Of a stretch of 64,000 nucleotides of DNA, positions 15,201 to 50,902 are shown in pieces. Numbering within the stretch: position 1 is the first letter of the stretch; the number at the start of each line of letters is the position of its first letter. Below the pieces are notes generated by a model. The model had not been told where the DNA came from. It worked only from the letters and a program-made list of their open reading frames with translations, and ran no database searches. This DNA comes from an uncultured Elusimicrobia bacterium (GTDB lineage: Bacteria > Elusimicrobiota > Elusimicrobia > FEN-1173): the NCBI GenBank assembly GCA_964482515.1, contig CAYZXT010000006.1, positions 28,521 through 92,520 on the forward strand, read 5' to 3'. Made by a program: the position numbers and the translations under genes.

Positions 15201-18200
15201 CAGCCCCGCCTCCTTCGGCCGAAATGTCCGCCGCGCCGCCGTCCGCAGAAACGCGGCCACGTTCGGATCGTCCGCGTAATCGTCAAGATAAACGTCCTCA
15301 AAGGCCCGCATCCAATCCAGCGTGCCATCGGGGTTTCGAGCCTGGCGGCACAGGAGCCGGAGGCGTCCCAGGCTGAAATCCGCCCGAGCCGGATAGAGCC
15401 CGCGCCGCGCCGGCGGAGGGACCGTCTCGAAAGCCCTTCTCAAGGAGAGCACCTTCTCAATATCGCTTTCCGTGAGAGCTCCACTGAATTCGCGCTTCAA
15501 TTCCTCCACTATGTCCCGCACGGAAATGTCCAACACGGCGCGGTGAAGAACCGAGACGCCGGCGCCGCTCCCGATATGAGAAAGAAGGATCAAGCGTCCC
15601 GTTAAAACGTTTTCCCCTTTGCCGGCGAAGGGACGGACCTCGCCGTTCACCACGAGATAGGGATTTTCATGCAAAGCCGTTTCCAACTGGCGCAGGAGAT
15701 CCGGATTGGATTCCATCCCCGCCAAAACGACGGTTTCTCCCCGTTCCAAGGCCTCCAACACCTGCCTCTTGACCGCCCGCAAACGCCCCCCCGGCAACAG
15801 CTCGCTCGCCATCGATAGATCGTCCAGGATGGTCGCCGGCGTGACCGGATAAACAAGGGGGGGCTGGCCGTTCCGTTCGGAGACGTCCCGCATGATCCGC
15901 GCCAACAGGCCGGACGGGTCCGATCCTTCAACGAGCGACACCCGCCGGTCCCGCGCCATTTCCCACGACTCCGGATCCGGGGCCCTGGTCCGGCGGACCG
16001 CCGGCAGCATTCCACGATAACGCAACGGGACCTCCACGCCGACGCCCAATTCAATTTCCAATTCGCCGCCCATATGCAAAAGACGGTGCCACAGCGACTC
16101 CGGAATTTCCGGATCGGTTATAAGGACCCGGAGACGCCCTCCGTCCGCGCCCATCCGCTCCAGCAATCCCGCGCCCTGGGACAACGTCCCCTGGGAATCG
16201 ATGCGGGTGAACTCAAACAGCTGGTGCTGCGTTTCCCGGTTCAAGACCCACGCGCGCTCCGCCGGCCAGGCGGTCTCGCCCGCCGGCACGACCCGTTTAT
16301 TCTCCAAGGCGCGCCGCCCGTAGCCGCCCTCCGCCCAATGGACGGAAAAACCTTCCCGCGCCGCCACCCATTTTCCGTTGGAAAGGATCCCGCCGTTCAA
16401 GAGGGCCTGCCGGACCATGTGGGACAACCGGGTGTTGGGGATTCCCTGCTCATCTCGCCACACGCCCCCTTGGATCAAGAGGGGCCGCCCTTCCCTCATG
16501 GCCCGGACGAGTGCGCCCTCTTCCCAGCGCACGCTTCCGTTGGGCAGAAGCCGGTAGCGCGCGACCAGCGCATCCTTAATATCGATGTCGTCGGACTCGA
16601 AAAGTTCCGCGCGCAGGCCGTTGAAAGCCTCCGGATCGTCGACCTGGGACAAACCTTCCAGCGGATCCGCGTAATCCGCGTCCGCTTGGAATTCCCCGGT
16701 CAGGGAGCGTGAATAAAAATCAACCGAAAATTCACGCAGCTGGTCCTCCCGCACCGCCCCAACGATGCGGAGCGACGGAGAGGCCTTAACGCCCAAATAC
16801 TCCGGAGAGTCCCCGAACAGCTGATTGAATCCCGCCACGGTCTTTGGGTCGGAATTCGTGTAGTCCAGGAACAACACGCCGCCCCGCTCGATCAATTGAA
16901 GCAAGGGGCTTTTCGCCTCCCCAAACCGGCCGTTTATCACGCGCGCGGGATTGAGCAAATCATCCAAATCGGTGTCATCCCGCAGGGTCAGCCGCAAATA
17001 CGGAATGTTTCCGTTCGCGGCCACGATTTCCCTTAGCCGCACATCCAATGCCTCCACATCCCGGGGCGTATTCACGAAGGTCAACCCGCGACCTTCGTTC
17101 AATAGATCGGTCAGGCTCGGATCGGCCCACGGCGAACCCATCGTCATCGGGAAACGGCGGAATATTTTGTTCCACCCCGTGTGGACGGCAACGGCCAGAA
17201 CAAAGCCGATCACCATGGCCAGGAGGGAGTAAAGCGGTCCATCGAACCCGGACAGGAACAACCGGGGCGCGGCGAGGGCGGCGAGGTTGAATAAGACAAC
17301 GGCGAAAAGGCGGACGGCGAAATCAACGGGGGATTTATTTTCATGGCGGAAAACGAAAGACGCCTGGTGCGCGGCGTAATAAACCGCCGCCACCAGCCAG
17401 AACGACATGACTATCGCCAAAAGCAGCGGATTCGCCTCCAGCAACACAGCCTTCAAATTCCATGCCGCCATCAGGATGAGGCCAGGCGCGCGGCCCATCC
17501 AAAAGGCGCGCCAGCGCGTCAACGTCGGCTGCCCCCGCGCTTCGATTTCCTTCCGCGCCGAAGCGGCGGGAGCCAGGCCCGCTTCTTCAATCACGGAATA
17601 GCCAAGCAGCTTGTGACTGATCATAGGATTCCTCAGCCACTCCGGCGCATGCTTGACCGCATTTTCGTAATAGGCCTTCGTGCTCGACAGGATCAGCGAG
17701 CGGCTTCCCCACAGGTTTTTCCACCAAGGAACGCTCAACCTCCGCGGCGGACTGAACCTCACCGACTGAAAGGAATCAGCGCCTCCCACGGGGAATTCGG
17801 CGACCACCGACGGCGCGCCCGGTCGCGCAATCAACAAGCCGTTCTCTCCGAACCCGATACTCCACCCCCACCACGCCTTGGCTTTCTCAATCAGCGCGCG
17901 AAGATTTTTACGCCTTTCACCTGAGGGAAGTTTGTTTTCCCTCCACCGCGCCTGGCTGCCCTCAACAGTGGCGGCCAAGGCGTTCGCCTTCACGGCGAAA
18001 TCATGGGCCTGGATCCTTCGCTGGAAGGGTTCGGCCAACCGCCGAATCAGCCCCGGCGAGGTAAACCGTGCGAAGATCAGGGAGATGGGTTCTCCGGCGA
18101 AAATTTTCTCGATGGGGAGTGGATCGCGGGAGAAGATGTCCATGTAATTTTTGGCCTGATCGATGTTTTCCACCTTTGGCGTGACGACGACGTAAGACGC

Positions 18201-19853
18201 ATTCTTCCGCCGCCAAAGCGCCGTCATACCCTCGGTGTGGAACCCGCCGGTCACCAGGACGGCGGAGGTTTGCTTTTCTTCTTTCATTTTCCTGAGCAGG
18301 TTTTCGGTGAGGGCTTCATTGCGGGCCAAAGCCAGACGGCAGAAATCTTCGAACGGTTTCAGCAATTCCGCGCGTATGGCGGGAAAAGCCGGAGAGCCCG
18401 ACGACAGAGAGCGGGCCCGGTCCGCCATGTTGAGGATCAACGGGCGTCGTTCCGTATAATCGGCCCAATGCCGCGGCGTCATTTCCGTGCGGAGCAATTT
18501 CGTCAGCAGGGCCTGGTCGCGTCCCAACCCCGCCAGTTCCTTTTGCGCCGGCTCAAAAGTGAGCCCGGCTTCGACTGTTTTTTCCATCCGTTCCAACTCG
18601 TCCAACAACTTGTCCCGGTTTATGCGCTCCGCGGACTGGACGTAGGTCATATAATCGGACAACTGCGGATAGCCGGTCAGGTCGATGTTCTTTTCCCGGC
18701 AAAGATCGCGCATATACGCGTAATATTCCCCGTAGCTCCTTTGACCGGCGCGGTACTCGACGCTCGCCCGCACCAGTTCATCCAGGGACTCCCGGCTCAG
18801 TCGCGATACCAGGCGATCGATCAAATCAAGCCGCTCGCGTTCCACCTTTTTGAAATCCAGTTTTTTCTCCCACCGGATCGCCCGGGACAACAGGGCCACG
18901 TTGGGATAGGCCCCGGCATCCGCGCGGGAGGAAAGAAAATCCACGTAAGCGCCCAGCCCTGTTTTACCCGCCTGGAAAGTTTGATAGAAGCGGTCGAACT
19001 CCTTGAGCCCGGGCGAATAAATTTTTTCTTTCAGACCGCTCACGGCCTCGGCCAGACCCGAGAGGAACTCCTCCGCTTCCCTCCGGCGGTCCTGGGCCGA
19101 GAGCACCGCGCGGGTGTTGTCGGCGTAAAGGTCGCCCGTCTCCACGCCCCAGAGGAGCGGCGCGACCTCCGACACCAACCCCAAATATTCCGCACCGCCC
19201 ACGTATCCTTCCTCCAGGAAATAGTCCGCGAGCTGTTGGTTCATTTCTTTCCCGGCCTCGGGCAGGGCCTTGTATTTTTCCATCTCGAAGTAGCCCTCGG
19301 CGCCCTCCAACCCCACGAGCTTCACCCCGCGCCCATCCTTCAGTCCCTGCAGGATGCGGGCGATGTTCTTTTGCGCGTCGTAGGCGCCATGGATGTCTTG
19401 AATGTGGATGATGAGGGGCGAATCCGATTTAGCCAAATGGATTTCCCGGACGCTTCCATAGGGCAAGACCAATCGGGAAAGCCAAGCGGGAACAATCCCG
19501 TTCTTGGCCCACTTCACGTTTTCAGAGAGGTCATGGGCGGACAAGGGAGCCAGAGATGGGGCGAGGGTGGATCCGTTCAGGGTTTCGGGAAGTCCCAGCG
19601 GGATTTGGCCGGTGGGAAGCTGGGCGAGGAGTTGATAGTCCCGGGATGAAAGACTGTTCGCGCGGCCCGGGTTATTTTGCGCCGAAGAGCGGGATACGGA
19701 TCTTCGTTCCTCCCAAAAGTTCGCCTCGGCCAAGGGCGATGCGACCGTTGAATAAAATAACAAGGCGCAGAGGGCGGCGGCGAGGCTCTTTTTGCTCGGT
19801 CCTTGCGCGCTGAAAGGCCTGAAAATCGAGCGGGTTCGGCGGATTATATCCAT
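6285..19853 (-). CDS. giant (4,522 aa) polytopic membrane protein: conserved N-domain, multi-AAA+ block, two HExxH motifs, 4 tandem modules, C-terminal domain
   Basis: ATG 19853 to TAA 6285-6287, uninterrupted. Composition is protein-like throughout, while overlapping ORFs are R/P/G/A-rich shadows. Motifs read directly: GSPGTGKS (14802-14825) with LLVLDEANLA (~14611-14645); GASGRGKD (13896-13919) with VVLVVSELD (~13715-13750); IATINGADFSGRERLSTALQNRVIF (~13560-13640); HEAGH (13038-13052); HEALH (7431-7445). Hydrophobic clusters lie near 17150-17480, 11860-12075 and 7270-7850. Confidence 0.9.
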   Translation of the reverse strand: MDIIRRTRSIFRPFSAQGPSKKSLAAALCALLFYSTVASPLAEANFWEERRSVSRSSAQNNPGRANSLSSRDYQLLAQLPTGQIPLGLPETLNGSTLAPSLAPLSAHDLSENVKWAKNGIVPAWLSRLVLPYGSVREIHLAKSDSPLIIHIQDIHGAYDAQKNIARILQGLKDGRGVKLVGLEGAEGYFEMEKYKALPEAGKEMNQQLADYFLEEGYVGGAEYLGLVSEVAPLLWGVETGDLYADNTRAVLSAQDRRREAEEFLSGLAEAVSGLKEKIYSPGLKEFDRFYQTFQAGKTGLGAYVDFLSSRADAGAYPNVALLSRAIRWEKKLDFKKVERERLDLIDRLVSRLSRESLDELVRASVEYRAGQRSYGEYYAYMRDLCREKNIDLTGYPQLSDYMTYVQSAERINRDKLLDELERMEKTVEAGLTFEPAQKELAGLGRDQALLTKLLRTEMTPRHWADYTERRPLILNMADRARSLSSGSPAFPAIRAELLKPFEDFCRLALARNEALTENLLRKMKEEKQTSAVLVTGGFHTEGMTALWRRKNASYVVVTPKVENIDQAKNYMDIFSRDPLPIEKIFAGEPISLIFARFTSPGLIRRLAEPFQRRIQAHDFAVKANALAATVEGSQARWRENKLPSGERRKNLRALIEKAKAWWGWSIGFGENGLLIARPGAPSVVAEFPVGGADSFQSVRFSPPRRLSVPWWKNLWGSRSLILSSTKAYYENAVKHAPEWLRNPMISHKLLGYSVIEEAGLAPAASARKEIEARGQPTLTRWRAFWMGRAPGLILMAAWNLKAVLLEANPLLLAIVMSFWLVAAVYYAAHQASFVFRHENKSPVDFAVRLFAVVLFNLAALAAPRLFLSGFDGPLYSLLAMVIGFVLAVAVHTGWNKIFRRFPMTMGSPWADPSLTDLLNEGRGLTFVNTPRDVEALDVRLREIVAANGNIPYLRLTLRDDTDLDDLLNPARVINGRFGEAKSPLLQLIERGGVLFLDYTNSDPKTVAGFNQLFGDSPEYLGVKASPSLRIVGAVREDQLREFSVDFYSRSLTGEFQADADYADPLEGLSQVDDPEAFNGLRAELFESDDIDIKDALVARYRLLPNGSVRWEEGALVRAMREGRPLLIQGGVWRDEQGIPNTRLSHMVRQALLNGGILSNGKWVAAREGFSVHWAEGGYGRRALENKRVVPAGETAWPAERAWVLNRETQHQLFEFTRIDSQGTLSQGAGLLERMGADGGRLRVLITDPEIPESLWHRLLHMGGELEIELGVGVEVPLRYRGMLPAVRRTRAPDPESWEMARDRRVSLVEGSDPSGLLARIMRDVSERNGQPPLVYPVTPATILDDLSMASELLPGGRLRAVKRQVLEALERGETVVLAGMESNPDLLRQLETALHENPYLVVNGEVRPFAGKGENVLTGRLILLSHIGSGAGVSVLHRAVLDISVRDIVEELKREFSGALTESDIEKVLSLRRAFETVPPPARRGLYPARADFSLGRLRLLCRQARNPDGTLDWMRAFEDVYLDDYADDPNVAAFLRTAARRTFRPKEAGLTGRSIHGPKLKAAMNKIVAPATWKDRFWEFADTLSLDLLDEAGVPESFDRAGAGRALELIQDALIAAHLGDDREGFYRALFRKANASVDQAPSINDKAGPVEESWDKRLGRVRRILAKSPAVFLKGSPGTGKSFAAKGLADALGLRMFGPVTIGVDAQEQDSNDDETGRASAFADITRWALHDGPALLVLDEANLARPDFWRFFGGLFVGEGETPYMWIEGRKIDMEGKKVVFTGNQETLQDRKYQDFLAPHVPTVAFPEFDEAFFRQRLEEYVSPDAPNAAALRALLLGVFETVRRVAGWEEGQGISLRDLQELSARAQVLSGSGNIVEEALLAAWEMFSPSLSPEGRVALRHALRLKFAVDAEALQNAWIEDLRNEGAQLYRSRALTLSRTTMRLAAAVGDFLIMREYRMKRNGLAAGKRGMILEGASGRGKDVTVVRVLESSGYEAVKAGAAAPGPRSFCHINASPRFDELEKAIVWAKENGVVLVVSELDVLPSGYLEGKLNDVLTDDNTDAKGFAFIATINGADFSGRERLSTALQNRVIFRREMDYDKDDLSEYALDIVTEFGTKAPALSDEDMAYIVRAHLWIQNALPRSRERPTPREFKRALLVAASGVSAEEAVERVYGPIYLRRMLRGQELPGRKALASLEFRSGLDKVKAIGRIAQFILPVHQRPVTISLKPAGQSAAGTYKAQKVDIAFREDQFDGQDWLNTLEHEAGHGLFTRDFAGLTPTSAPDFFLSLAGLQAPADPFEDVYQDLEDLRHKRAMRQHFPGSITQDNDHESVYFQRDLERGIAGDWKGLFSLAPKKIFQLALIAYGRKEISRTQLEAAASAWLERYGEVNLNPFALALRHLDVVDEIFQNGIPETLEEDEILYRQYLALKAMQRIKLDGEFLSLGAVPVRSPKEKSVLPRPGSVDVGKVLGRIGEVDLSGPPREMEERAVPEEPLEDVVEDLQDQRNEILKSLSDELGLMEDDLPLASEERLREIIAQLTDNKAPRSILTALGFLGDKDLTARKAKILAIAQAKLKSNKAPAGSRFRMRRLALAAGVLLASGILALLVVHANSGSSALPAMIPRIPEPELLRGMPNYLPLVIIVGLSLLASMVYGGIKLSAARAEGVSTEDSRLTRFLGFLGRIRISQMGRLAGLFGRVASETVGSRYDGIEGAHESKARDDNNDVQISESVSARPVPSVLSEESRYSKMKELSTTVSSLLDAEASAFVQRRATPGREFGPPGTGTLYLPKFLRNPLRGFRRGGMPTASTRPPLLVHGLPANGGNLIAGEFVHFLKDRGFEVVVVSGTLDEPQAAAYLKEAPYIIMSARELQSRVEAAYIYAVARRDRERAPVLKEAPVDSVYPDNVLDASGHFPTIEEQRRILVETFGENQVRLLLHGNLGLTLDRDYEVSWDALWKKCPSIESIIIREDGPSDLRIFNGLRGLRTIFIPPGKFSDDDVGLFFGNENDPMRIVVHVWDEEIVRQSYSASTFTPGLSNENLISEMEEACREFVPPHLTRDIYVRLGVSRKYEIKPTKVATVPDLMKMTEYSRRASILIFVDHDQFTDADMARIVLSAPFPEGVSIEEIQEIIMQGETPRFMDYSKAVAYCRAHPEEFTVTLPGATPPAAQRTVQPADTPDPFPAIEEQREALIDIFGPEKVKVDRNGDLELTVDDRDLFPYRECESLWKHCPSIRTIIVGENGTLSINFYEGIRGLRNIQLPAGRFHRVELERFYREAENSGRIRIYSDNPSGGMKWFSAADFIPGSGFKEVRAIIREKLGRHNMMSSVTAEFMQDMWQLRIRLSQGLGVDELRVLTGFSEMREVFLMSEGFQIDEFFMTFFILTSPVPENVHFIFSSDEGESRSMSYSEAVAYYRAHPKQFSLMALPGTTPPAAQRTVQPADTPDPFPTIEEQRRILVDTFGENQVHLRDDGPLELMLDRDYAVSWDVLWRKCPSIESIIIKEDGPSDLRVFSGLRGLKTMSIPEGKFRKKDIRSFYQDYSPAPKAFIAEISRSGKGKKTYRMDHIFPSYNDSVIAAELSNDLKAIVGPAAANESSIHPSSFGEFTFFVGASIKGSDMLKMVQYLNVRNLKIVIEEGQFSEAVLSRIILSSPRPEAVKIGFFKSFRTIAYPEAVAYRRAHPEEFADMGPIATPAPAAEDRFPTLESQVTRARDLFGPSATVEKNVFGLLVNVGQRQEPLEGMGSLPSLGILHLEASRVKDLSPLFGLRALHKVFVSDGQFPEAMIVNLFLHHPNPKDLIVDSGSKQYDHAWALSGKFGEPTNPTEEMMGTLRGLMRSLSKEETRVEDNSSVISINLEGLSEWLIIHRVLNELTTGITVPCTIKVNAAFPKKAMLDFILKCRVPEYVQVYFVGDDGKVSDIMGYEDAAKAYSSRERDAQSEPTAHGPRSELLNRLLETLVDRSAALKKVRDWFEAEGESDAYDRLFEDIERRAVSRETWRQGLWAAALFGVAAAAFLVSAQFLAASFGFAASSLGAAAAWPLAGLVLMGILRLVLAAAARSGAAYETPDGRAPPLFGFRSVRVEPGVDLLEFEKNTHALVLNPSLAHFVYHSNPVFKVLSRAGLYILGVPGHEALHGLGVVSERWAYFAAQVLPVSLGFLAGSLAGGVAGGIVLAMVFSALLSAAFRAILSARQDSVSEVSVVPVPVAVDDSWHVKESGFRDRARVWLRGIAPARNFGVDALGLPRIHIRLASNAFVDGTPDPAALRGALTKGLARESARGGDRGAAYVLGRALESLGDNAPGDAWSPRGHETFRSDILAAYAGRVVFTKVSARMRGGKDVFAEVPADVMKKGAARASVSGLLAAFVANNAGTAGDTANTLTLIVRDPRQASPDFWQGMSADAAFNAGRDREEFMRDYDVLLRQGNIRIILAGERPSLIASARAEVSLLDGAILRMDRLLSALEKAGQLDPKNAVIFASDQVELGVYKDVVVLVPIFRLVESLQEGLKALGLFLTSA
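8040..11100 (-). repeat. four in-frame tandem protein modules (~805, 798, 762 and ~700 nt) inside giant ORF 1
   Basis: Module starts are marked by (P/H/R)FPT(I/L)E(E/S)Q at nt ~11100, 10295, 9497 and 8735. Each has two LRR-like halves and ends in (Y/M)xEAVAYxRAHPEEF-type linkers. Hand-counted DNA identity between copies: 85/88 (9475-9562 vs 10273-10360), 58/60 (9439-9498 vs 11041-11100), 115/125 (9281-9405 vs 10883-11007). Confidence 0.85.
13560..17150 (-). other. multi-AAA+ (AAA_5/MoxR/midasin-like) block, two units with intact Walker A/B and upstream degenerate units
   Basis: There are two P-loop/Walker-B pairs (see the CDS entry), each followed by an ATxN...GR..L..AL.NR-type segment. Upstream units lack the P-loop Lys but keep Walker-B-like strands (GGVLFLDYTNSDPKTVAGFNQLF; GETVVLAGMESNPDLLRQLETAL). 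Confidence 0.6.
18085..19722 (-). other. conserved N-terminal domain of giant ORF 1 (paralogous to 44230-45870)
   Basis: Alignable by eye block by block with giant ORF 2: FWEERR/FWQDRR; IHIQDIHGAYDAQKNI/VLVQDAHEIYSAQLNI; LVGLEGAEG/LIGLEGAAG; LWGVETGDLY/MLGVETPTLY; LDFKKVERERLDLIDRLVSRL/LDFKAVESERLQLVKILSHRL; VLVTGGFHTEG...VVVTPKV/VIVVGGFHAPA...VTVTPKV; PLPIEKIFAGE/VPLEKMFLGE. Confidence 0.85.
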
Positions 19854-19935: not shown

Positions 19936-19994
19936 GGAGACAGTCCCGACCGCCCTCTGGGACCGGATGAAAATGTCTCTATTTTATAGCTCGT

Positions 19995-21299: not shown

Positions 21300-21300
21300 A

Positions 21301-39841: not shown

Positions 39842-39845
39842 GATT

Positions 39846-40250: not shown

Positions 40251-40283
40251 GAGAGGAGTCTCCTTTGGAAGTTATACGGAAAT

Positions 40284-40568: not shown

Positions 40569-40605
40569 AGAGGGTTCACCCGTATTTTAGCAAATTGGTT
40601 GGCTT

Positions 40606-41505: not shown

Positions 41506-42095
41506 ACTTGACCTCCATCGATGATCCCGCCGCCGAACACCAGCTGAACCGGTTCGTCCCCATGCACCAAGCCGAACCGGAGGGCCAGGCTCTCTAAATT
41601 CTCCACGTCCTCGCGATTGTATTTCAGCAAAAGATCCAGGGCTCCCTTATCGCCGGAATTCCGGAAACGGCCCCAAAGGCGGATGGCTTCCAACCCGTCC
41701 ACGCCGTCCGTGTCCCGTTGGATGCCCAGCGTCCGCTCCACTTTCTTCAGCCCGCCGTACAGGTTCCGCGCCCAGCAGTCATGCATCAGGTCGCGGTGGA
41801 AAAATTCCTTGGCCAGGTCGGCCCGCAGCTGGGTATGGATGATCGGCAGATCGAAGCGCGCGCCGTTGTAGGTGAACAAAACGTCGATCCCGCTGAGGAA
41901 TTCACGGATCTCCCGCGCGTGCAGCGCCGGATGGGTCCATTGGCGCGTGCCCTGGTCCGGGCGATGGATCCCCACGACGGTGATGTTCTGGGACCAGTCC
42001 GTCTCGATGTCCAGATAGGCCCGGACCTTGTAGCGCTCTTCCGGCGGGAGGAAAGTCTTCCGCTTGGAAAAGCGCCGCGGCCGGCCCCTACTCAT
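41502..42095 (-). CDS. RNase H-fold DEDD-type 3'-5' exonuclease (YprB/PolB-exo-like)
   Basis: YLDIETD (Exo I), FTYNGARFDLP (Exo II), HRDLMHD (Exo III-like). Confidence 0.6.
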   Translation of the reverse strand: MSRGRPRRFSKRKTFLPPEERYKVRAYLDIETDWSQNITVVGIHRPDQGTRQWTHPALHAREIREFLSGIDVLFTYNGARFDLPIIHTQLRADLAKEFFHRDLMHDCWARNLYGGLKKVERTLGIQRDTDGVDGLEAIRLWGRFRNSGDKGALDLLLKYNREDVENLESLALRFGLVHGDEPVQLVFGGGIIDGGQV

Positions 42096-44083: not shown

Positions 44084-44116
44084 TTGCACATCCAACTCAG
44101 CAAGGGGAATGAACCA

Positions 44117-47100
44117 ATGGCATCAAAACCGGTTTTCAACGCACGCAAATCCTGTTTGACCCGCTCGGTCGCCGCCGGGACGGCGCTCCTGTTCCTGGGA
44201 TCGACCGTCCTCTCCCCTTGGGCCGAAGCGAGTTTCTGGCAGGACCGGCGGAAAGCCGTCGAGTCATCGCAGCGTGACCCCGAAGCCGCGCAACAGTTCG
44301 CCCAACTCCCCCGGGCGCTTTCCGATTTGAACGGCGCCCTCCCGCGGGTCGCGAATTCCTTCCCCGACCGCCAAGCCCTCACCGACATTCCCTCCGTCCA
44401 AACGGACGGCATTTCCCGCAAAGACGTAGAACATCTGCCGTCGTGGCTGACCTCCCTTCCCGCGACCTACGGCGACATCCAGAAAATACGCCTGGTTACC
44501 CGGCCGGAAGAACATCCCCTCGTCGTCTTGGTGCAGGACGCCCATGAAATTTATTCCGCCCAGCTCAACATCTCGCACGTTCTGGAACACCTGGATAAAA
44601 ATTCCCAGGGCCAACGGCTGCTGATCGGGCTGGAAGGCGCCGCGGGGCCGCTCGATCTTAAAACTTACCGCCGATCCGCCGACCGCCGCCGCCAGGCCAT
44701 CGTTTCGGACGTCCTGCTCGAGACGAAACTGCTGAGCGGACCGGAACATTTCGGCTTCACGGCGGAGCGCGAACCCCGGATGCTGGGCGTCGAAACGCCT
44801 ACGCTCTACATCGAAAACGTCCAGGCCTATCAGGAATTGCTCCCCAGGAAAGACGCGTTCAAGGAACAGCTCTCCGCCTTCGATTTTTCCCTGAAACCGG
44901 CCAAAGATAAATTCTTCAGCCTCACGCTCTGGGCCCTGGACGAAAACATCGCCTCCTACCACAAAGGGTCCCTCGACCTCCTGCATTACGTGAAGTTTCT
45001 GTCCAAACAGGTCGAGCTCGGAAAGGATTTCCCGGAAACCCGCCAATTGCTGGACGTCCTGGCGCTCGAGGATTCCCTGGATTTCAAGGCCGTGGAAAGC
45101 GAGCGCCTCCAGCTCGTTAAAATACTCTCCCACCGCCTGGACAAGGCGGCGCTCAACGGTTTATTGCAGGCCAGCCTCGCCTACAAAATGGGGCGCATAT
45201 CCTACGGCGCGTACCACGAACACCTCCGCATCCTGACCCGGAACGCCGGCGTCGACCTCTCCCGCTTCCCCGGGTTCAACGTCTACATCCAGTACGTTCT
45301 GCTGTCGGAAAAAATCGACAAGTACACGTTGTTCGACGAAGTCAACGCTCTCAAAGAAACCGTCGTGGACCGTCTGGGGTCCAGCCAGGGCCAAAAAGAA
45401 CTGCTTCGCCTTTCCGAGGACATCCGCCTGCTGGAAAGTTTGTCGGAACAACAGTTCGGCCCCACCGAGTGGGAGCGATACTCGGCGCGGCGCGATGAAA
45501 TCCTGCGCATCCCGCAGCGCATCGCCGCGTTGTCCCATGACGCGCAGCCGTCGCCTTCGGCGGTCGCGTCGTTCCAGGAAACGCTCCCCCTGTTTGAACG
45601 TTTCTACCGCGCGGCCGACGCCCGCAACGGCGCCCTGATCGGGAACCTTCTCGAAGGCATGCAGCCCGCCGCGTCCGGACAAACGGCGGCCGTGATCGTG
45701 GTCGGCGGTTTCCACGCGCCCGCGATCGAAAAACTCCTGGGCGACAAAAACATTTCCGTCGTCACGGTCACGCCCAAGGTCGGCCCCGTCGACAAAGCGT
45801 CCCGCTATCTGGACGTTTTCGCGCTGAAGCACGTCCCGTTGGAGAAAATGTTCCTGGGCGAAAAGCTTTACATGGCGCCCGTGCGATTGACGGGCACGAA
45901 CGAGGCGATGGCGGCGATCCAACCAGCGAGAACAACCGATGATTTGAAGCGGGTCTATCTGACCTACGATTATATTCTCGACCAGCTGGGAGAGACCGGG
46001 AGAAAAATCAAGGCGTTCGGGGATCTCGACAAACACATCGAGTCAACTTTTGATCGCGCCCACGGCGTATGGTTCTTCAAGGTCCTAATGCCGGATGGGA
46101 GCAACCCAATTTATCTTTGCGGAGCGGAAACGGCAGGCGCCCGCGAAAAAGTAATCTCCGCTCTTGGTTATGCCCCAAGCGGTTTGAAATGGAAAATCGA
46201 CAAGCAGGAAGACGATATTGCGCTCGTCATCATTTCCGATCGAGCGGCCGAGAAATACCCCTTCTTACAGGCAAAACCATCCCTGACTTCCTGGGTCAAG
46301 GACGCGGTGGATTTCCTGCGCCAGCCGCCCACGGTCGCCGTGGCGGGTTTTGTCGCCGTCACCGCTTTAGTCGCTCAATACGCCATTGTCATTCTCGGCT
46401 TGGGAGTTCCGGCAGCTTTGATGATGGGAATGGCGTGGGGCGTCATTGTTCCCGTCCTTATCATTCTTATGGGCCAGTTGCCGCGATTCGCGCGAATGCC
46501 GGCTTTCGCTCCGGCAATGATGCGCGCCTCGAACAACTCACAACAACCGGAGGAGGTTTCCCCGAGCGCCCCGCTTTTCATGCAGTCCACCTCCCAGGGC
46601 GGAAAATCGGCAGTTAACGCTAATTCAACGGAAGAAACCCGCGCCATCAAGGCCTGGATCAGGGAGCAATTGGATTTAATGTCGGAGGAATTAGGCAAAA
46701 CCCCGGACACCTATGAGGAGATCCTGCGTCACAGCGACGAGGCTCTGACGGCTATCGCCCAACGGATCATCGACGGTACGTTAAACCGGCATGCAGCCAT
46801 CAACGTGGACCCAGACGCGCCCCCGGTCAAGACGACGGACGAGGAACTGAACATCGGCGTTTACGCGGTGGCCGCAAACCCTCTGCACTGGGGCCATATC
46901 CTGCTCGCTCTCGACGCCGTCGCCTATCACGGCGTGGACCAGGTAGTGTTCATCCCGCAGGGCGAAGACGAACGCAAACCCGACCTCGACAAGCTGAACA
47001 CCGAGCAGCGGCACGAAATCGTTCCGGCCGTCTTGGCCAATTTCGCGCCATTCTTTAAATATTCCCCCCTCGGGCTCGGTAACAAATACGACGGCGAAAC

Positions 47101-49825
47101 GAACGTTTTCCGCCTTTTCAAAATGAATCCTAATCAGAGGATGCGCCTGCATTATATGGTCGGCGCCGATCACTTCAACGTGTTCGTCCTCAACAAAGCC
47201 GGGCGATGGGTGGAAGACACGGTGGCGAAACTTTCCAAGAACCTCTTGGACCCAGCGCGCATCGCCGCATTGGACAACGTTTACCAAAACAATCCCCTCC
47301 ACAGACTCACGGCCCTTTTCATCGCCAGGATTGAAAAAGGTCGGGCGCTTATGCCGCGGTTCGATCAATTGGAAGCCGAGATCCGAGAAGCCTCACTAAC
47401 AAATATTTCCTTCGCTGATCAAGAAAGCGGGGGAAGCATTGCGCACGAGCAACTGACCATTCACGTCATGAAAGGCGTCCAATTCGAAGCCTCCTCCACC
47501 ATGGTGCGGAACGGCGATTACTCCCTGGTCCCTTACCACTATTACATGTACGCCAAAGCGCGCGGCATGTATAAAATCCCGCCGACGCCCCGGTGGAAAA
47601 TGGAAAAAAAACCCACGATGAGGCGCCTCGACAAAATCACCGGATTTTTACCCGACGGCGTGGCACCGCAGGGCATTTACTCGATGGAATGGCACCTCCG
47701 GTGGACGGCCAACATCACCCAGGCGGCCGCCAAGGAATTGCAGGTCAGCACCAACTGGGCGGAGTTCTTGGCGATGGTCCACGACCTCAGCGACTGGCCC
47801 TTCCGCCACTTTGGCCGGACAGGAGACTTCGCGCGGGTCATCGATGCCGCGCAAAGAGCCGGGTACAACCAGAAAGTCCAAACAGTGGAGCTGCTTGCCC
47901 AGGATGGGGTTTATCTGACCCCCGAAATGGTCAAAGACATTATACACTTCGACATAAGCAACCCGAACCCCACCAGCCCGGAGCAACAAGCCGCTTTGAT
48001 CGTGGATTCGCTCATGAGCGTTATGTCGGATATCGTCTTCGGACTAACGTATAGAGTCAGCGCTTCCAGCCAGGACACCCTCATTACGTACGACCAAATT
48101 CCGGAGGACCTTAGAACCCTCTTTAATTTGCGGGAAACGACACTCACGACTCTAAACGAGCAAAGCGACAACAACATCGGCGAGATGGTCCAGGTCGCCG
48201 TTTTAAACGCAGTCAGCAACCTGTACCGCGAGGTCGAGAGCTCCCAGGAGACCATTGAGGAGCTGGAACGTGTCATTCGGGAAATTGAAGCGGAAAAGGG
48301 TCCGCTTGATGACAAAGCCAAAGCGGACGTTCGCATCAAGGTTGTTAGGTTCGGGATTTACAAGCGAGCCGGTCAGGTCAAACAACAGGCCCGGGCAAAT
48401 TTTATCAGCGATCTCCTCTACAAACCCATGACGGCGGAATATTCCGCCGCAGCCTCCGATTACCTCATGCGGGCCTATGAAAAAACCTTCGGCGTCCCCT
48501 TCATCGGCGACGGTTCCGACGATGAAAAAGCCCGCGAATTCCTGGTAATACTCAGCCGCATGTCGGAAGACGAAGTCATCGCCTTGGCGGACGACGAGCC
48601 TGCGCGGAGCATGATGTACTTCGGTGGCGCGGCGGTGACGGGCGCCCTTGGCTTAATGGCCGCGTTTGGATCGATTCTCTTGGTTAATCGCTGGATCAAA
48701 AATCAAAATCCGGACTTCCGCCTTCCCTCATGGAACAACAAAGGGACCGCGGCCTATTTTGCTTTCAGCGTCCTTATGGGAATCCTTTTGTCCTCGTTCA
48801 TCCATGCATTGGGCGCCCCGCTTTGGATTGCCGACATGCTGACGGCGCTGTTCGTCATCTCCCCCCAGATTATCCTGACCGCCCGAATGAACTTGGCCCC
48901 GGCGACACATCAAACCCTTACGGACGAACACGTCGCGGAGGAAATCATTCCCAGTATTCGGATTACAACGACGAGCCTCGAGAAACAGCAATCTGAGATC
49001 CTGGCGCTGCTCACCGGCGACGCATCGAAATCCCCCGCCCGGAAACGGCAGCTGGCGGGCCGCGTCGCGGCGTTCGTGTCGACCTACGCCGCCCTGGACC
49101 GCGCCGCCGAGCAGCCCGGCCGGTCGGAAGCCGTGATTCAAGGCCTGGCGGATTCAGTCAGGCTAGCGCTCTCCTCGCTGAACGGATCCTTCAACGAGAC
49201 CCTGGCGTCCCTCTATAACGGCCTCATCGCGGCCGGGGTCCAATTGTTCCAGGGAAGCATCCCGAGCGGCCTGCAGATCGTCGTCGTCAACGCCGCCGAC
49301 CTGAAGGGTTTGAGCGCTTCCGAGCAGGACGTCTATCTCGCCCGCTACGTCGCGCCCGTGTTGGATTCCGCGCAGCGCGTCCTGGTCATCGGCGACGCGG
49401 CGTCTTACGGAGACGCTTCCATCGCCAAGATAAAGTCCGTCATCGACAACGCGAACGGCGGAAACGGCCTGCCCTACAGCTACGCGGAGGCGAAACGTCT
49501 GGACCCGGCCGATCCGGAATCGCCGGTCGACCTCATGGCGACGCTGAAACAAAGGGACGGCGCGGCGCTGAACGAGCTGACGGAAACAGGACTGCAGTTG
49601 AGCGGGTTCGTCACGGCCCTGGAACTCGCGAGCGTCGCGCCGCTGTCGAGCGACGACATCCGCGAGCTGTCGGACGCCGGCCTGCTCGCCCCCGACGGAA
49701 ACCTCTGGTTCCTGTGGGTCAGCATCGCCCTCAACCAGGCGTTCTCCGCGCAGAACGCGGCGCAGGCGATCCAGGGCATCGTCAACGACATCAACGGCAT
49801 CATCCAAACGCTGATCGCCGCCTAA
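44117..49825 (+). CDS. giant (~1,900 aa) polytopic membrane protein: conserved N-domain, NadD-like nucleotidyltransferase + HD-like core, C-terminal domain
   Basis: The frame is open from TTG 44084. ATG 44117 has a good SD (AAGGGGA, 8-nt spacing). Motifs: N-domain as in giant ORF 1; TM cluster ~46330-46490; AANPLHWGH (H at 46886) and SSTMVR (47492-47509); H-x28-HD (47693 / 47780-47785); coiled coil ~48240-48330; TM cluster ~48610-48890. TAA at 49823-49825. Confidence 0.9.
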   Translation: MASKPVFNARKSCLTRSVAAGTALLFLGSTVLSPWAEASFWQDRRKAVESSQRDPEAAQQFAQLPRALSDLNGALPRVANSFPDRQALTDIPSVQTDGISRKDVEHLPSWLTSLPATYGDIQKIRLVTRPEEHPLVVLVQDAHEIYSAQLNISHVLEHLDKNSQGQRLLIGLEGAAGPLDLKTYRRSADRRRQAIVSDVLLETKLLSGPEHFGFTAEREPRMLGVETPTLYIENVQAYQELLPRKDAFKEQLSAFDFSLKPAKDKFFSLTLWALDENIASYHKGSLDLLHYVKFLSKQVELGKDFPETRQLLDVLALEDSLDFKAVESERLQLVKILSHRLDKAALNGLLQASLAYKMGRISYGAYHEHLRILTRNAGVDLSRFPGFNVYIQYVLLSEKIDKYTLFDEVNALKETVVDRLGSSQGQKELLRLSEDIRLLESLSEQQFGPTEWERYSARRDEILRIPQRIAALSHDAQPSPSAVASFQETLPLFERFYRAADARNGALIGNLLEGMQPAASGQTAAVIVVGGFHAPAIEKLLGDKNISVVTVTPKVGPVDKASRYLDVFALKHVPLEKMFLGEKLYMAPVRLTGTNEAMAAIQPARTTDDLKRVYLTYDYILDQLGETGRKIKAFGDLDKHIESTFDRAHGVWFFKVLMPDGSNPIYLCGAETAGAREKVISALGYAPSGLKWKIDKQEDDIALVIISDRAAEKYPFLQAKPSLTSWVKDAVDFLRQPPTVAVAGFVAVTALVAQYAIVILGLGVPAALMMGMAWGVIVPVLIILMGQLPRFARMPAFAPAMMRASNNSQQPEEVSPSAPLFMQSTSQGGKSAVNANSTEETRAIKAWIREQLDLMSEELGKTPDTYEEILRHSDEALTAIAQRIIDGTLNRHAAINVDPDAPPVKTTDEELNIGVYAVAANPLHWGHILLALDAVAYHGVDQVVFIPQGEDERKPDLDKLNTEQRHEIVPAVLANFAPFFKYSPLGLGNKYDGETNVFRLFKMNPNQRMRLHYMVGADHFNVFVLNKAGRWVEDTVAKLSKNLLDPARIAALDNVYQNNPLHRLTALFIARIEKGRALMPRFDQLEAEIREASLTNISFADQESGGSIAHEQLTIHVMKGVQFEASSTMVRNGDYSLVPYHYYMYAKARGMYKIPPTPRWKMEKKPTMRRLDKITGFLPDGVAPQGIYSMEWHLRWTANITQAAAKELQVSTNWAEFLAMVHDLSDWPFRHFGRTGDFARVIDAAQRAGYNQKVQTVELLAQDGVYLTPEMVKDIIHFDISNPNPTSPEQQAALIVDSLMSVMSDIVFGLTYRVSASSQDTLITYDQIPEDLRTLFNLRETTLTTLNEQSDNNIGEMVQVAVLNAVSNLYREVESSQETIEELERVIREIEAEKGPLDDKAKADVRIKVVRFGIYKRAGQVKQQARANFISDLLYKPMTAEYSAAASDYLMRAYEKTFGVPFIGDGSDDEKAREFLVILSRMSEDEVIALADDEPARSMMYFGGAAVTGALGLMAAFGSILLVNRWIKNQNPDFRLPSWNNKGTAAYFAFSVLMGILLSSFIHALGAPLWIADMLTALFVISPQIILTARMNLAPATHQTLTDEHVAEEIIPSIRITTTSLEKQQSEILALLTGDASKSPARKRQLAGRVAAFVSTYAALDRAAEQPGRSEAVIQGLADSVRLALSSLNGSFNETLASLYNGLIAAGVQLFQGSIPSGLQIVVVNAADLKGLSASEQDVYLARYVAPVLDSAQRVLVIGDAASYGDASIAKIKSVIDNANGGNGLPYSYAEAKRLDPADPESPVDLMATLKQRDGAALNELTETGLQLSGFVTALELASVAPLSSDDIRELSDAGLLAPDGNLWFLWVSIALNQAFSAQNAAQAIQGIVNDINGIIQTLIAA
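44230..45870 (+). other. conserved N-terminal domain of giant ORF 2 (paralogous to 18085-19722)
   Basis: See the block-by-block alignment listed for 18085-19722. Confidence 0.85.
46840..47560 (+). other. NadD/NMNAT-like cytidylyltransferase-fold nucleotidyltransferase domain
   Basis: IGVYAVAANPLHWGHILLA is the (H/T)xGH motif in NadD-like context. FEASSTMVRNG is the ISSTxxR-type C-terminal motif. Their spacing of ~200 aa is appropriate for the fold. Confidence 0.65.
47690..48100 (+). other. HD-like phosphohydrolase domain (YqeK-like position after NadD-like domain)
   Basis: EWHLRWTANITQAAAKELQVSTNWAEFLAMVHDLSD gives H-x28-HD, the spacing typical of HD domains. I could not place the downstream metal ligands confidently. 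Confidence 0.4.
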
Positions 49826-49903: not shown

Positions 49904-50902
49904 TTATCCGCGGATTTTTTTGAAGACTTTCTCCACCTCGTCCCATACTTTTTTTGGGTCCTCGGCCAGGACGGTGTCCAGCAGTTCCCCTCCATCGTAG
50001 CTCCAGGCCGCCAGGTGGGTGACGCCGGCCTTGACCGCGGCGTCGCAGGCCGCCTCGATTTCATTCTCCCGGCCCTTCGACAGGCGCATCGCCTGGACCC
50101 AGATCTGGCTCCCTTTTCCCGCGGCGGAGCGCACGGTCTTTTCCGCGAAACGCGTCACGGTCGGCCCGGGCGGTTCGTTCCGCCGGGGCGGCCAGCGCCA
50201 GTAGGGATCGCTGCCGAAAATATCCAGCGCGGGGATGGCCGAAAGGTTGTTCCAGATCTGCTCGTATCCCGCGTATCCTTCGAAAGCGTAGAGGCAGAGC
50301 GCGTTGCGGACGCGCCGGCGATGGGTATAATCCATCAAACCCTCCAGGAAGCCGCGAAGCGTGCGAAGGCGGAACGTGCGGGCGTCTTCGTCCATGCGCT
50401 GCGGCATGACGCGCCCGAAGTCCGCCTTGAACAGTTCCTGGCACGCCGGGCAGATGCAGGAGTAAATCCCTTCCCACTCCAGGTCCCAATGAAAATAGAC
50501 GTGGGGCTCGTCCCAGAAAATCACCTGCGCGCCCTGGTCCGCGACGTGGGAAACCCACTGCCGGACGAAGGTCTGGAACGCCGGGCTGTTGAGGCAGGCC
50601 GCCGGAACGCGTTTCCCGTTGGAGAGGACTTGCCAGGTTTCGGGATGGTCCAATAAAAACTTGGAGAGGGCCTCGCCGCCGAAAACGCCGCCGAGCCCCC
50701 AGGGGTCCACCCAAAGCTCCAGGCCGCGCTTGCGCGTGTCCTCGAAGATCCGGGAGAGCGACGCTTTGTGAAATTGGAAATCGTTTTCGCTGTAGGTGTG
50801 GACGACGTAGTCGCAGCAATCGGCCAGGCGGGCCTGGTCGCGGCGGGCATGCTCCAGATAACGGTTGCCGAAATAGGAAACGCCGGTGAGCAAGATTTTC
50901 AC
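49904..50902 (-). CDS. uncharacterised TIM-barrel-like protein, possibly clan GH-A-type glycoside hydrolase
   Basis: GTG start with a GGGAGG SD. VIFWDEPHV resembles the (N/D)EP acid/base strand of clan GH-A enzymes. The assignment is weak. Confidence 0.35.
   Translation of the reverse strand: MKILLTGVSYFGNRYLEHARRDQARLADCCDYVVHTYSENDFQFHKASLSRIFEDTRKRGLELWVDPWGLGGVFGGEALSKFLLDHPETWQVLSNGKRVPAACLNSPAFQTFVRQWVSHVADQGAQVIFWDEPHVYFHWDLEWEGIYSCICPACQELFKADFGRVMPQRMDEDARTFRLRTLRGFLEGLMDYTHRRRVRNALCLYAFEGYAGYEQIWNNLSAIPALDIFGSDPYWRWPPRRNEPPGPTVTRFAEKTVRSAAGKGSQIWVQAMRLSKGRENEIEAACDAAVKAGVTHLAAWSYDGGELLDTVLAEDPKKVWDEVEKVFKKIRG

What the first reader, a model, noticed from the sequence alone, without database searches (positions are those of the whole stretch)
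44084..49825. Second giant membrane ORF built on the same frame but with a different enzymatic core
This ~1,900-aa ORF starts with the same conserved N-domain as the 4,522-aa ORF. It has the same gross layout of N-domain, TM cluster, soluble core, TM cluster and C-terminal domain. Its core is a NadD-like nucleotidyltransferase plus an HD-like domain instead of AAA+/HExxH/tandem modules. Two paralogous frames with swapped cores 24 kb apart suggest a modular family, not a one-off assembly artefact.
Basis: partly seen in the sequence, partly recalled or inferred. Interest (0 to 1): 0.8.

Follow-up and report, generated by a model that had tools for sequence, protein, structure and literature searches.

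The report
Modular giant protein, TIKI-like chassis
This 1,902-residue gene of an Elusimicrobiota genome belongs to a huge, unnamed family of giant envelope proteins that keep the same hydrolase-like front end and the same tail but swap the enzymes carried in between. Here the cargo is a NadD-like nucleotidyltransferase plus an HD phosphohydrolase.

Summary
ORF2 (ATG 44117 to stop 49825, 1,902 aa) is intact, and a second assembly encodes the identical protein. Its N-terminal ~565 aa match the 4,522-aa ORF1 at 35% identity (E 3e-84).

A profile of the domain finds 10,330 protein clusters. They are 0.5–7.6 kaa long and almost all from Elusimicrobiota and Omnitrophota, with 5–8 or more copies per genome.

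Members also share a signal peptide followed by an [F/L]WxxRR motif, and a C-terminal module ending in an alanine. ORF1 and ORF2 both score as members of that module.

Close relatives keep both ends but have unalignable middles, so the "same frame, swapped core" reading is supported.

ORF2's core is NadD-like (HxGH, SSTxxR) and dGTPase-like HD at superfamily level only. It is not an orthologue of either.

Membrane topology and mechanism remain unresolved. My working model is an exported carrier matured by its TIKI-like hydrolase.

The parts
44117..49825 (+). ORF2 coding sequence: 1,902 aa plus stop.
   Evidence: The 1,902-aa product is identical in NCBI and in the Logan assembly SRR14787578.
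44117..44230 (+). Signal-peptide-like N-terminus, aa 1-38: a K/R-rich n-region, a hydrophobic h-region, then P-W-A-E-A (an AxA site).
   Evidence: Read from the sequence. The same arrangement is seen across the family: 119 of 151 members have an h-region.
44234..44251 (+). [F/L]WxxRR motif (F40-W-Q-D-R-R45), directly after the AxA site.
   Evidence: 136 of 151 members carry it. It lies a median of 23 aa (IQR 23-24) after the start of the h-region.
44417..45916 (+). Conserved N-domain, aa 101-600: TIKI/TraB/ChaN/erythromycin-esterase-fold α/β core with a large helical insertion.
44537..44635 (+). First half of the putative active site: Q140-D141-x-H143, Q149, E173.
   Evidence: H143, Q149 and E173 are invariant in 165 of 165 members; D141 in 163. 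They correspond to E3900-x-H3902 and E3930 of RRSP (PMC6254334).
44798..45661 (+). Helical insertion of about 290 aa (aa 228-515) inside the TIKI-like core.
   Evidence: Secondary structure of the AF2 model: helices at model residues 128-415.
45623..45715 (+). Second half of the putative active site: R503 and G530-G-x-H533.
   Evidence: R503 and H533 are kept in 164 of 165 members. They correspond to R4001 and H4030 of RRSP, with the same spacing of about 30 residues.
46331..46492 (+). Hydrophobic hairpin, aa 739-792: two predicted membrane helices joined by a G-L-G-V-P turn.
   Evidence: Kyte-Doolittle scan.
46829..47611 (+). NadD-like (HIGH-motif) nucleotidyltransferase module, aa 905-1165, with H924-W-G-H927 and S1126-S-T-M-V-R1131.
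   Evidence: Homologous modules occur in P0033 (E 3e-17) and twice in P0125 (E 2e-16 and 1e-15).
47684..48274 (+). dGTPase-like HD phosphohydrolase module, about aa 1190-1386, with H1193, H1222-D1223 and H1231.
   Evidence: NCBIfam NF002327 E 1.9e-6. Alignment to 2dqb. Pfam HD E 0.14.
48626..48883 (+). Second hydrophobic cluster, aa 1504-1589: one helix, a K/R-rich loop, then a probable hairpin.
   Evidence: Kyte-Doolittle scan.
48884..49822 (+). C-terminal region, aa 1590-1902: a helical stretch followed by an α/β-patterned region.
   Evidence: Sequence pattern and alignment A4. The AF2 model was poor (pLDDT 59), so the fold is unassigned.
49727..49822 (+). Family C-terminal module: the last 32 aa, an amphipathic helix ending …TLIAA-COOH.
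   Evidence: +18.7 bits against a right-justified family matrix built without ORF1 and ORF2. 88 of 118 further members of ≥1,000 aa end in Ala.
6285..19853 (-). ORF1, the 4,522-aa paralogue. N-domain at 18045-19502; C-terminal module at 6288-6383.
   Evidence: +21.7 bits. AAA_5 E 3.4e-10.

Best explanation
**What is shown.** ORF2 is a real, intact gene of an Elusimicrobiota genome. It belongs to a very large, unnamed family of modular giant proteins.

The family has a constant chassis:
- a Sec-type signal peptide with an AxA site, followed at fixed spacing by an [F/L]WxxRR motif;
- an N-domain of about 500 aa with the TIKI/TraB/ChaN/erythromycin-esterase fold. It keeps a near-invariant D-x-H…E…R…H site split by a helical insertion of about 290 aa;
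- hydrophobic hairpins;
- a C-terminal region ending in an amphipathic helix and a terminal alanine in about three quarters of long members.

Between these ends the family carries interchangeable, strongly diverged enzyme modules. In ORF2 these are a NadD-like nucleotidyltransferase and a dGTPase-like HD phosphohydrolase.

**Working mechanism (inferred, about 45% likely).**
- The signal peptide exports the N-domain, and the hairpins anchor the chain in the envelope.
- The TIKI-like domain is an active hydrolase, a peptidase or esterase as in Tiki, RRSP or Ere. It matures or processes the carrier, acting on its own or its paralogues' conserved termini or linkers.
- The cargo works at the membrane or outside the producer's cytoplasm, at the cell surface or in a partner cell.
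- For ORF2, the cargo would form and hydrolyse an adenylylated or dinucleotide product.
For: **Gene and organism**
- The gene is real: the identical ORF occurs in a second assembly.
- The window's enolase lies on the same 116-kb contig, and all named relatives but one are Elusimicrobia.

**N-domain**
- Homology to ORF1: E 3e-84.
- Active site: H143, Q149 and E173 are kept in 165 of 165 members, D141 in 163, R503 and H533 in 164. Their order and spacing match the residues shown by mutagenesis to be essential in RRSP (PMC6254334).

**Family**
- Size and distribution.
- Conserved termini.
- Core swapping between close frames.
- The same cargo type in another frame.

**Cargo identity**.

**Export**
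- A canonical AxA site precedes the motif in most members.
- 9 of 114 complete members have no predicted membrane helix after the N-domain.
- The analogous giant proteins of Omnitrophota are predicted to carry a signal peptide plus membrane helices.
Against: - No activity, localisation or processing has been measured.
- The cargo modules are enzymes that need ATP, NTPs or other cytoplasmic cofactors. A bacterial periplasm holds no ATP, which argues against function outside a cytoplasm.
- Topology is unresolved. My crude hydropathy count gives 54 members with an even and 60 with an odd number of helices between the ends. Charge bias around the hairpins is at background level.
- ORF1's count (3+2+3 helices) would fit cytoplasmic cores.
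- Nothing shows that the TIKI-like domain acts on its own protein.
- The fold of the C-terminal region could not be modelled.
- All matches of the core to NadD and dGTPase are far below curated cut-offs.
Confidence: 0.55

Rival explanations
1. Same family and chassis, but a different topology. Only the N-domain, and perhaps the C-terminal module, face the periplasm. The membrane segments thread the enzyme cores back into the producer's cytoplasm. The protein would then be a membrane-tethered cytoplasmic enzyme or regulator whose periplasmic TIKI-like domain senses or controls it.
For: - The cores are cytoplasm-type and cofactor-dependent: AAA+, SecA-DEAD, Lon, kinase, receiver, NTase.
- The nucleotide-binding motifs of ORF2's NTase are intact.
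- ORF1's predicted 3+2+3 helices give N-domain out, cores in, C-terminus out.
- ORF2's second hydrophobic cluster has three helices with a K/R-rich first loop.
Against: - ORF2's first cluster reads as a two-helix hairpin, which would return the chain to the outside.
- Members with no helix after the N-domain exist, and these too carry ATP-dependent modules.
- Helix-number parity across the family shows no preference for even counts: 54 even against 60 odd.
Confidence: 0.3
2. A polymorphic toxin or effector of inter-bacterial conflict. A constant trafficking part delivers a variable toxic enzyme, and a cognate immunity gene protects the producer.
For: - The architecture is constant ends with variable enzymatic content, in many paralogues per genome.
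- The TIKI fold occurs in secreted effectors such as HopBA1 and RRSP.
Against: - The variable part is central, not C-terminal.
- No gene family recurs next to the 78 loci examined; the most frequent is present in 5 loci.
- The flanks in the window are housekeeping genes.
- No PADLOC or PHROGs hit for ORF2, and no relatives in 2.9 million viral contigs.
- The cores resemble metabolic enzymes, not known toxins.
Confidence: 0.07
3. ORF2 is simply the organism's NAD-biosynthesis enzyme, NadD, possibly together with a YqeK-like HD hydrolase, fused to a membrane anchor.
For: - The best matches of aa 905-1165 are NadD families and structures.
- NadD-HD fusions exist; NCBIfam NF005519 is matched weakly.
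Against: - Scores are far below the equivalog cut-offs: 33.7 bits against 150, and 27.4 against 315.
- The HD part resembles dGTPases rather than YqeK.
- The module's only close relatives are P0033 and the two copies in another giant frame.
- 1,250 further residues belong to the family chassis.
Confidence: 0.05
4. Not a functional gene: an assembly chimera, a run of fused ORFs, or a decaying pseudogene.
For: About half of the members examined have cores with no recognisable domain, and ORF2's core has almost no relatives.
Against: - A 5.7-kb open frame is found identically in a second assembly.
- The N-domain's catalytic set (H143, Q149, E173 in 165 of 165; D141 in 163; R503, H533 in 164) and the C-terminal module imply purifying selection at both ends.
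- The NTase motifs are intact.
Confidence: 0.03

Closest known systems
TIKI superfamily: Tiki1/2, TraB/PrgY, ChaN, GumN, erythromycin esterases EreA/B/C and Bcr135/136, the MARTX effector RRSP, the type III effector HopBA1
   Same: - It has the same ordered acidic-x-His … Glu … Arg … His constellation, with the same spacings of about 30 residues as in RRSP, where those residues are essential (PMC6254334).
- Weak Pfam PF04187 matches are found.
   Different: - A helical insertion of about 290 aa splits the core.
- The first acidic residue is Asp, within a Q-D-x-H motif, instead of E-x-H or GTxH.
- No Pfam or NCBIfam model reaches its threshold.
- The domain is always the N-terminal module of giant multi-enzyme proteins that also carry a conserved C-terminal module.
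- Neither substrate nor activity is known.
Giant 'multi-enzyme' signal-peptide-plus-transmembrane proteins of Omnitrophota, including Archaeovorins (West-Roberts et al. 2023, bioRxiv 10.1101/2023.11.21.568195; bioRxiv 10.64898/2026.06.07.730766)
   Same: - Both have a predicted signal peptide, interspersed membrane helices and highly diverged copies of cytoplasm-type enzymes.
- The repertoires overlap: starch synthase, phosphoglucomutase, receiver, NUDIX, HD, SecA-DEAD, AAA_5.
- The N-domain also occurs in Omnitrophota. In two loci it is a separate gene directly upstream of an ORF of ≥3,100 aa.
   Different: - ORF2 is 1.9 kaa and ORF1 4.5 kaa, not ≥10-147 kaa.
- The host here is Elusimicrobiota.
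- A text search of those two papers found no mention of a TIKI/TraB/ChaN-type N-domain, and the sections I read describe no shared C-terminal module.
- Whether the ≥10-kaa proteins start with this domain was not tested.
MARTX toxins
   Same: Conserved N- and C-terminal parts frame a variable array of enzymatic modules. A protease module processes the protein. One known MARTX effector (RRSP) has the TIKI fold.
   Different: - No RTX or glycine-rich repeats and no cysteine protease domain were detected by Pfam.
- No type I secretion genes were seen next to the gene.
- A Sec signal peptide and membrane hairpins are present instead.
- The resemblance is one of logic only, not of homology.
NadD (nicotinate-nucleotide adenylyltransferase) and NadD-HD (YqeK) fusions; Dgt/SAMHD1-type dGTPases
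   Same: - The HxGH and SSTxxR motifs are present, and the best sequence matches are to NadD.
- The H…HD…H pattern aligns to a dGTPase.
- The pairing of nucleotidyltransferase with HD hydrolase has precedents.
   Different: - Scores are far below orthologue cut-offs.
- The substrate-binding residues were not examined.
- The modules are embedded in a membrane-associated giant protein.
- The nearest relatives are a standalone 687-aa NTase with a weak, sub-threshold P-loop NTPase signature (P0033) and two modules in another frame (P0125).

Membership tests
TIKI/TraB/ChaN/erythromycin-esterase superfamily (N-domain) | α/β fold with a central parallel β-sheet flanked by helices | tested here: met
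   [not shown]
TIKI/TraB/ChaN/erythromycin-esterase superfamily (N-domain) | Catalytic 2His/2Glu constellation (E-x-H, E, H) plus a substrate-contacting Arg, as defined for RRSP and Ere | tested here: met
   D141-x-H143, E173, R503 and H533 are kept in 163-165 of 165 members, in the same order and spacing. The first acidic residue is Asp, not Glu.
TIKI/TraB/ChaN/erythromycin-esterase superfamily (N-domain) | Significant match to a Pfam family of the clan | tested here: inconclusive
   PF04187 is matched by 10 of 29 members, best E 8.7e-7. The two whole-protein scores shown (20.3 and 20.5 bits) are below the gathering score of 27.7. ORF2's own N-domain gives no hit.
TIKI/TraB/ChaN/erythromycin-esterase superfamily (N-domain) | Hydrolase activity (peptidase or esterase) | not testable with these tools
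   Requires biochemistry.
NadD (nicotinate-nucleotide adenylyltransferase) | (H/T)xGH and ISSTxxR nucleotide-binding motifs | tested here: met
   H924-W-G-H927 and S1126-S-T-M-V-R1131. Both align to NadD structures.
NadD (nicotinate-nucleotide adenylyltransferase) | Score above the curated equivalog cut-off | tested here: not met
   NF000840: 33.7 bits against 150. TIGR00482: 27.7 against 112.45. Pfam PF01467: 15.9 against 21.
Dgt/SAMHD1-type HD phosphohydrolase | H…HD…D metal-binding motif | tested here: inconclusive
   H1193, H1222-D1223 and H1231 align to 2dqb. The distal Asp was not identified.
Dgt/SAMHD1-type HD phosphohydrolase | Score above the curated cut-off | tested here: not met
   NF002327: 27.2 bits against 393. 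Pfam HD: 12.9 against 22.
Omnitrophota giant multi-enzyme proteins / Archaeovorins | Length ≥10 kaa (2026 catalogue) or gene >90 kb (2023 definition) | tested here: not met
   ORF2 is 1,902 aa and ORF1 is 4,522 aa.
Omnitrophota giant multi-enzyme proteins / Archaeovorins | Signal peptide and/or many membrane helices, with several diverged enzyme domains | tested here: met
   This rests on hydropathy and motif reading only, not on a trained predictor.
MARTX toxins | RTX-type repeats, a cysteine protease domain, and type I secretion genes | tested here: not met
   No such Pfam hits. No such neighbours.
Polymorphic toxin systems | Variable C-terminal toxin domain with an adjacent immunity gene | tested here: not met
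   The variable part is central and the C-terminus is conserved. No neighbour family recurs.

The most novel reading that the evidence does not exclude
The signal peptide with its [F/L]WxxRR motif, the TIKI-like domain and the C-terminal alanine module together form a self-contained, previously unrecognised chassis for export and auto-processing. It carries arbitrary enzymes to the cell surface or into neighbouring cells. It would be shared by Elusimicrobiota and Omnitrophota and would underlie the enigmatic giant proteins of the latter. In this reading the TIKI-like hydrolase recognises the conserved termini and releases or activates the cargo.
Probability: 0.15. Interest if true: 0.9.

Novelty: new variant of a known kind. 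Interest (0 to 1): 0.65.

Why it matters
- Giant, membrane-interleaved, multi-enzyme proteins of Omnitrophota have been catalogued, but no unifying element or mechanism is known for them.
- This window gives a tractable handle. A chassis defined at both ends, with a near-invariant hydrolase site, is present in more than 10,000 protein clusters. It comes in sizes of 1-5 kaa that can be cloned, and the modules it carries visibly change between close relatives.
- If the chassis turns out to be an export or processing device, it would be a new way for bacteria to display or deliver enzymes. It would also explain why cytoplasm-type enzymes sit behind signal peptides in these phyla.
- Even without a mechanism, the family is a large gap in current domain libraries: neither Pfam nor NCBIfam has a model for it.

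Tried and rejected
**C-terminal region**
- Pairwise and iterative sequence searches (phmmer, jackhmmer) on the last 300-330 aa link only sub-groups and never ORF1 or ORF2. Only a right-justified position matrix worked.
- The AF2 model of ORF2's last 200 aa, built on a 20-sequence alignment, was poor (pLDDT 59, pTM 0.38). I therefore ran no fold search on it.
- I considered modelling a chimera of the N-domain and the C-terminal region to test docking. I dropped the idea because the tool returns no coordinates or contact information.

**Fold and structure searches**
- The AlphaFold-database fold library was unavailable.
- A two-sequence NTase profile found nothing in the PDB. The four-sequence profile did.

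**ORF2's core**
- A homologue search with the core alone found a single protein, P0033.

**Genomic context**
- No gene family recurs beside the 78 loci.
- No relatives in viral contigs.
- No PADLOC hit for either ORF and no PHROGs hit for ORF2.
- No Rfam family in the window, and only one dubious tRNA.
- ORF1's contig is not on record for a context look-up, and cluster look-ups returned no names.

**Topology**
- Counts of K+R around the hairpins and around the N-terminal h-region were at background level or symmetrical, so they say nothing about topology.
- Helix-number parity was also uninformative.

**Search set-up**
A 10-sequence alignment worked.

Full report
**1. The observation**

The window holds an open frame at 44084..49825 (+) of 1,913 codons from a TTG, and a 4,522-codon frame at 6285..19853 (-). 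An ATG at 44117 gives a 1,902-aa product. That exact protein is on record in NCBI (on a 116-kb contig) and in a separate Logan assembly of run SRR14787578, where the gene is uninterrupted. The ORF is therefore not split in an independent assembly, although both assemblies may derive from the same sample.

The window's enolase lies on the same 116-kb contig. All named relatives but one, at 64-79% identity, are from Elusimicrobia MAGs. The flanking genes are ordinary chromosomal ones:
- FolD, an RNase H-like gene, DAGK_cat and ApbA upstream;
- two sulfatase-family membrane proteins downstream;
- enolase, phosphoglucomutase, GlcD/GlcF-like genes and ComEC near ORF1.

**2. The shared N-domain**

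BLASTP of ORF2 against ORF1 gives one significant pair: aa 40-603 against 35-598, 35% identity over 576 aa, E 3e-84. Nothing else is better than E 0.31.

A homologue search with ORF2 found 31 other proteins of 1,246-3,295 aa. All match only through this N-terminal part, and those named by a source are from Elusimicrobia. The domain, about 490 aa, was recovered in all 33 proteins.

In RRSP the residues E3900, H3902, E3930 and H4030 are essential, and R4001 is needed for activity (PMC6254334). The family has D141-x-H143, E173, R503 and H533 in the same order. The spacings are also the same: 30 and 30 residues, against 28 and 29 in RRSP. H143, Q149 and E173 are present in 165 of 165 members, D141 in 163, and R503 and H533 in 164.

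The fold and the conserved site are shown. Activity is inferred from the conservation.

**3. The family**

A full HMMER scan of 1.84 billion cluster representatives with the N-domain profile returns 10,330 proteins at E≤1e-3 and 7,253 at E≤1e-30. In the best 150 the domain always lies at about residues 100-600, in proteins of 532-7,623 aa.

In one genome per species (GTDB), at least 434 loci encode a relative:
- Single Elusimicrobiota MAGs hold 5-8 or more copies.
- Omnitrophota also carry it.
- A few MAGs are labelled Clostridia, Planctomycetia or Nanoarchaeia.

Many ORFs in these loci run beyond the 10-kb flank (>3,900 aa), and paralogues are often in tandem. The window itself holds exactly two copies.

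ORF1 and ORF2 are not recent duplicates. ORF2's N-domain is 38-46% identical to proteins of other genomes, but only 35% identical to ORF1.

**4. Both ends are conserved**

*N-terminus.* Of 151 members complete at the N-terminus, 136 have an [F/L]WxxRR motif. It lies a median of 23 aa (IQR 23-24) after the start of a hydrophobic stretch. In the sequences read, the motif directly follows a P-x-A-E-A type signal-peptidase site: SPWAEA|SFWQDRR in ORF2 and SPLAEA|NFWEERR in ORF1.

*C-terminus.* Pairwise and iterative searches fail for ORF1 and ORF2. When tails are aligned by their last residue, a module of about 32 aa appears: a hydrophobic strand, G, a strand, then an amphipathic helix.
- 48 of 65 tails in the first set end in alanine, as do 88 of 118 in an independent set (QA 31, AA 18, SA 12).
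- I built a matrix from 109 tails, leaving out ORF1 and ORF2. It scores ORF2 at +18.7 bits and ORF1 at +21.7 bits.
- For comparison: held-out members score 12.1±11.5, C-termini of neighbouring proteins -23.5±12, and the maximum among all 6,350 internal windows of the two ORFs is 9.5.

So both ORFs carry the family tail. The fold of the wider C-terminal region is unknown, because the model was poor.

**5. Swapped cores**

The middles carry very different content:
- Pfam hits: aminotransferase, glutamate dehydrogenase, IMPase+NUDIX, starch synthase, TPR, phosphoglucomutase, VTC, SecA-DEAD+HTH_8, metallophosphatase, Lon/AAA+ and M48+ABC1.
- Names given by JGI or NCBI: PrpC phosphatase and α/β-hydrolase.
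- Eleven further members have no Pfam domain outside the N-domain.

In the subfamily P0006/P0048/P0067/P0071/P0097/P0128, the first 600-750 aa are 47-66% identical and the last 200-420 aa are 23-54% identical. The 600-2,100 aa between them mostly do not align. A few modules are shared by only some pairs. This shows directly that the frame is kept while the core changes.

**6. ORF2's core**

*Nucleotidyltransferase, aa 905-1165.*
- It matches NadD models (NF000840 E 2.5e-8; TIGR00482 E 2.4e-6) and six NadD structures (E 0.003-0.016).
- The HxGH motif (H924-W-G-H927) and the SSTxxR motif (1126-1131) are intact.
- In 5.8 billion proteins, the core's only relative found by the word-indexed search is P0033. 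This is a standalone 687-aa protein (NTase plus a weak, sub-threshold P-loop NTPase signature) encoded next to ligA.
- Among the family members fetched later, P0125 carries a phosphoglucomutase and two copies of the same NTase type: 26-28% identity to ORF2, E 2e-16 and 1e-15. P0125 is a frame protein of another Elusimicrobia species.
- A profile of the four modules hits almost only NadD structures (14 of 16 hits, best E 3.8e-4), and the SSTxxR motif is aligned.

*HD module, about aa 1190-1386.*
- It matches dGTPase models (NF002327 E 1.9e-6).
- WH1193…VH1222D1223LSDWPFRH1231FG aligns to H…HDLGHPPFGHTG of Thermus dGTPase 2dqb.

All scores are far below the curated cut-offs. The modules are NadD-like and Dgt-like by superfamily, not orthologues.

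**7. How it may work**

*Shown:* a constant, selected chassis at both ends, a hydrolase-type site, changing cargo, many paralogues, no conserved partner gene, no link to phages or defence systems.

*Inferred:* the signal peptide exports the N-domain.

The position of the cores is open.

For an outside location:
- ORF2's first hydrophobic cluster reads as a two-helix hairpin.
- 9 of 114 complete members have no helix after the N-domain.
- The comparable Omnitrophota proteins are predicted to carry a signal peptide plus membrane helices.

For a cytoplasmic location:
- The cores need cytoplasmic cofactors.
- ORF1's 3+2+3 helices fit that topology.

My crude counts give no parity signal (54 even, 60 odd), and charge bias is uninformative.

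I commit, at about 45%, to an exported and anchored carrier. In this model the TIKI-like domain processes the protein, and the NTase/HD pair acts at or beyond the membrane. The cytoplasmic-core variant gets about 30%.

**8. Comparison with what is known**

- The N-domain is a new, insertion-bearing branch of the TIKI superfamily.
- The whole protein resembles, in logic and in domain repertoire, the giant multi-enzyme proteins of Omnitrophota. It is 10-70 times shorter than the largest of those and comes from another phylum.
- In two Omnitrophota loci the N-domain is a separate gene of 594 or 623 aa directly upstream of an ORF of ≥3,128 or ≥3,285 aa. Those ORFs carry Hexapep, or SIS and DUF4954 domains. 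This ties the two phenomena together.
- A text search of the two Omnitrophota papers found no mention of a TIKI/TraB/ChaN-type domain, and the sections I read describe no shared C-terminal module.
- MARTX toxins are an analogy only.

**9. Verdict**

The family-level picture is the interesting result; the mechanism remains open.

Noticed in passing
L075:9821-21400 and L078:9680-21406 (Omnitrophota MAGs): The N-domain is a separate gene of 594 or 623 aa, followed after 414 nt (L075) or 3 nt (L078) by an ORF of ≥3,128 or ≥3,285 aa that runs off the locus. Those ORFs carry Hexapep, or SIS and DUF4954 domains. This looks like a split version of the frame and links the family to the Omnitrophota giant genes.
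   Followed up: partly
L010:9623-17971 (= P0125), Elusimicrobia MAG SRP342105_co1_313: A frame protein with a phosphoglucomutase (aa 834-1380) and two NadD-like modules (aa ~1580-1770 and 2076-2290) homologous to ORF2's. A second family gene follows directly in the same locus (17998-21600).
   Followed up: yes
Loci L010, L013, L023, L041, L042, L047, L049; ORFs in L011, L017, L042, L049, L069; P0087, P0098, P0166: Family genes often sit in tandem. Some single ORFs contain two N-domain matches, as if neighbouring paralogues had fused or the chassis can be repeated internally.
   Followed up: no
window 42088-42966 (-), 50957-53197 (-), 53187-55643 (-): ORF2 is flanked by a DAGK_cat diacylglycerol kinase-type gene and two consecutive sulfatase-family membrane proteins of 746 and 818 aa. 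From general knowledge, this combination recalls the transfer and recycling of lipid head-groups in envelope synthesis. Whether it relates to ORF2's nucleotidyltransferase is unknown.
   Followed up: no
window 6285-19853 (-), ORF1: ORF1 carries a MoxR/CobS-like AAA_5 ATPase region (Pfam E 3.4e-10; PHROG 249 E 1.2e-14) and two HExxH motifs (aa 2268 and 4137). The second lies between predicted membrane helices. The DNA at about 8-12 kb, inside ORF1, has a lower G+C content (0.51-0.55 against about 0.62 elsewhere).
   Followed up: partly
Family members P0003, P0009-P0011, P0022, P0024, P0029, P0030, P0032: Many members, though not ORF2, contain one or two HExxH zinc-peptidase-type motifs in their variable part. 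A second protease type is therefore a frequent cargo.
   Followed up: no
window 49904-50902 (-): A 329-332-aa ORF convergent with ORF2 has no Pfam hit. It is called as a gene in the Logan assembly.
   Followed up: partly
window 40065-40137 (+): ARAGORN calls a tRNA-His with anticodon ATG inside the 296-aa ORF at 39831-40721. No Rfam tRNA match reaches threshold, so the call is probably spurious.
   Followed up: partly
L080:1395-3458 (P0033): The nearest relative of ORF2's nucleotidyltransferase outside the family is a standalone 687-aa protein with a weak, sub-threshold P-loop NTPase signature at aa 446-505. It is encoded two genes upstream of an NAD-dependent DNA ligase.
   Followed up: partly
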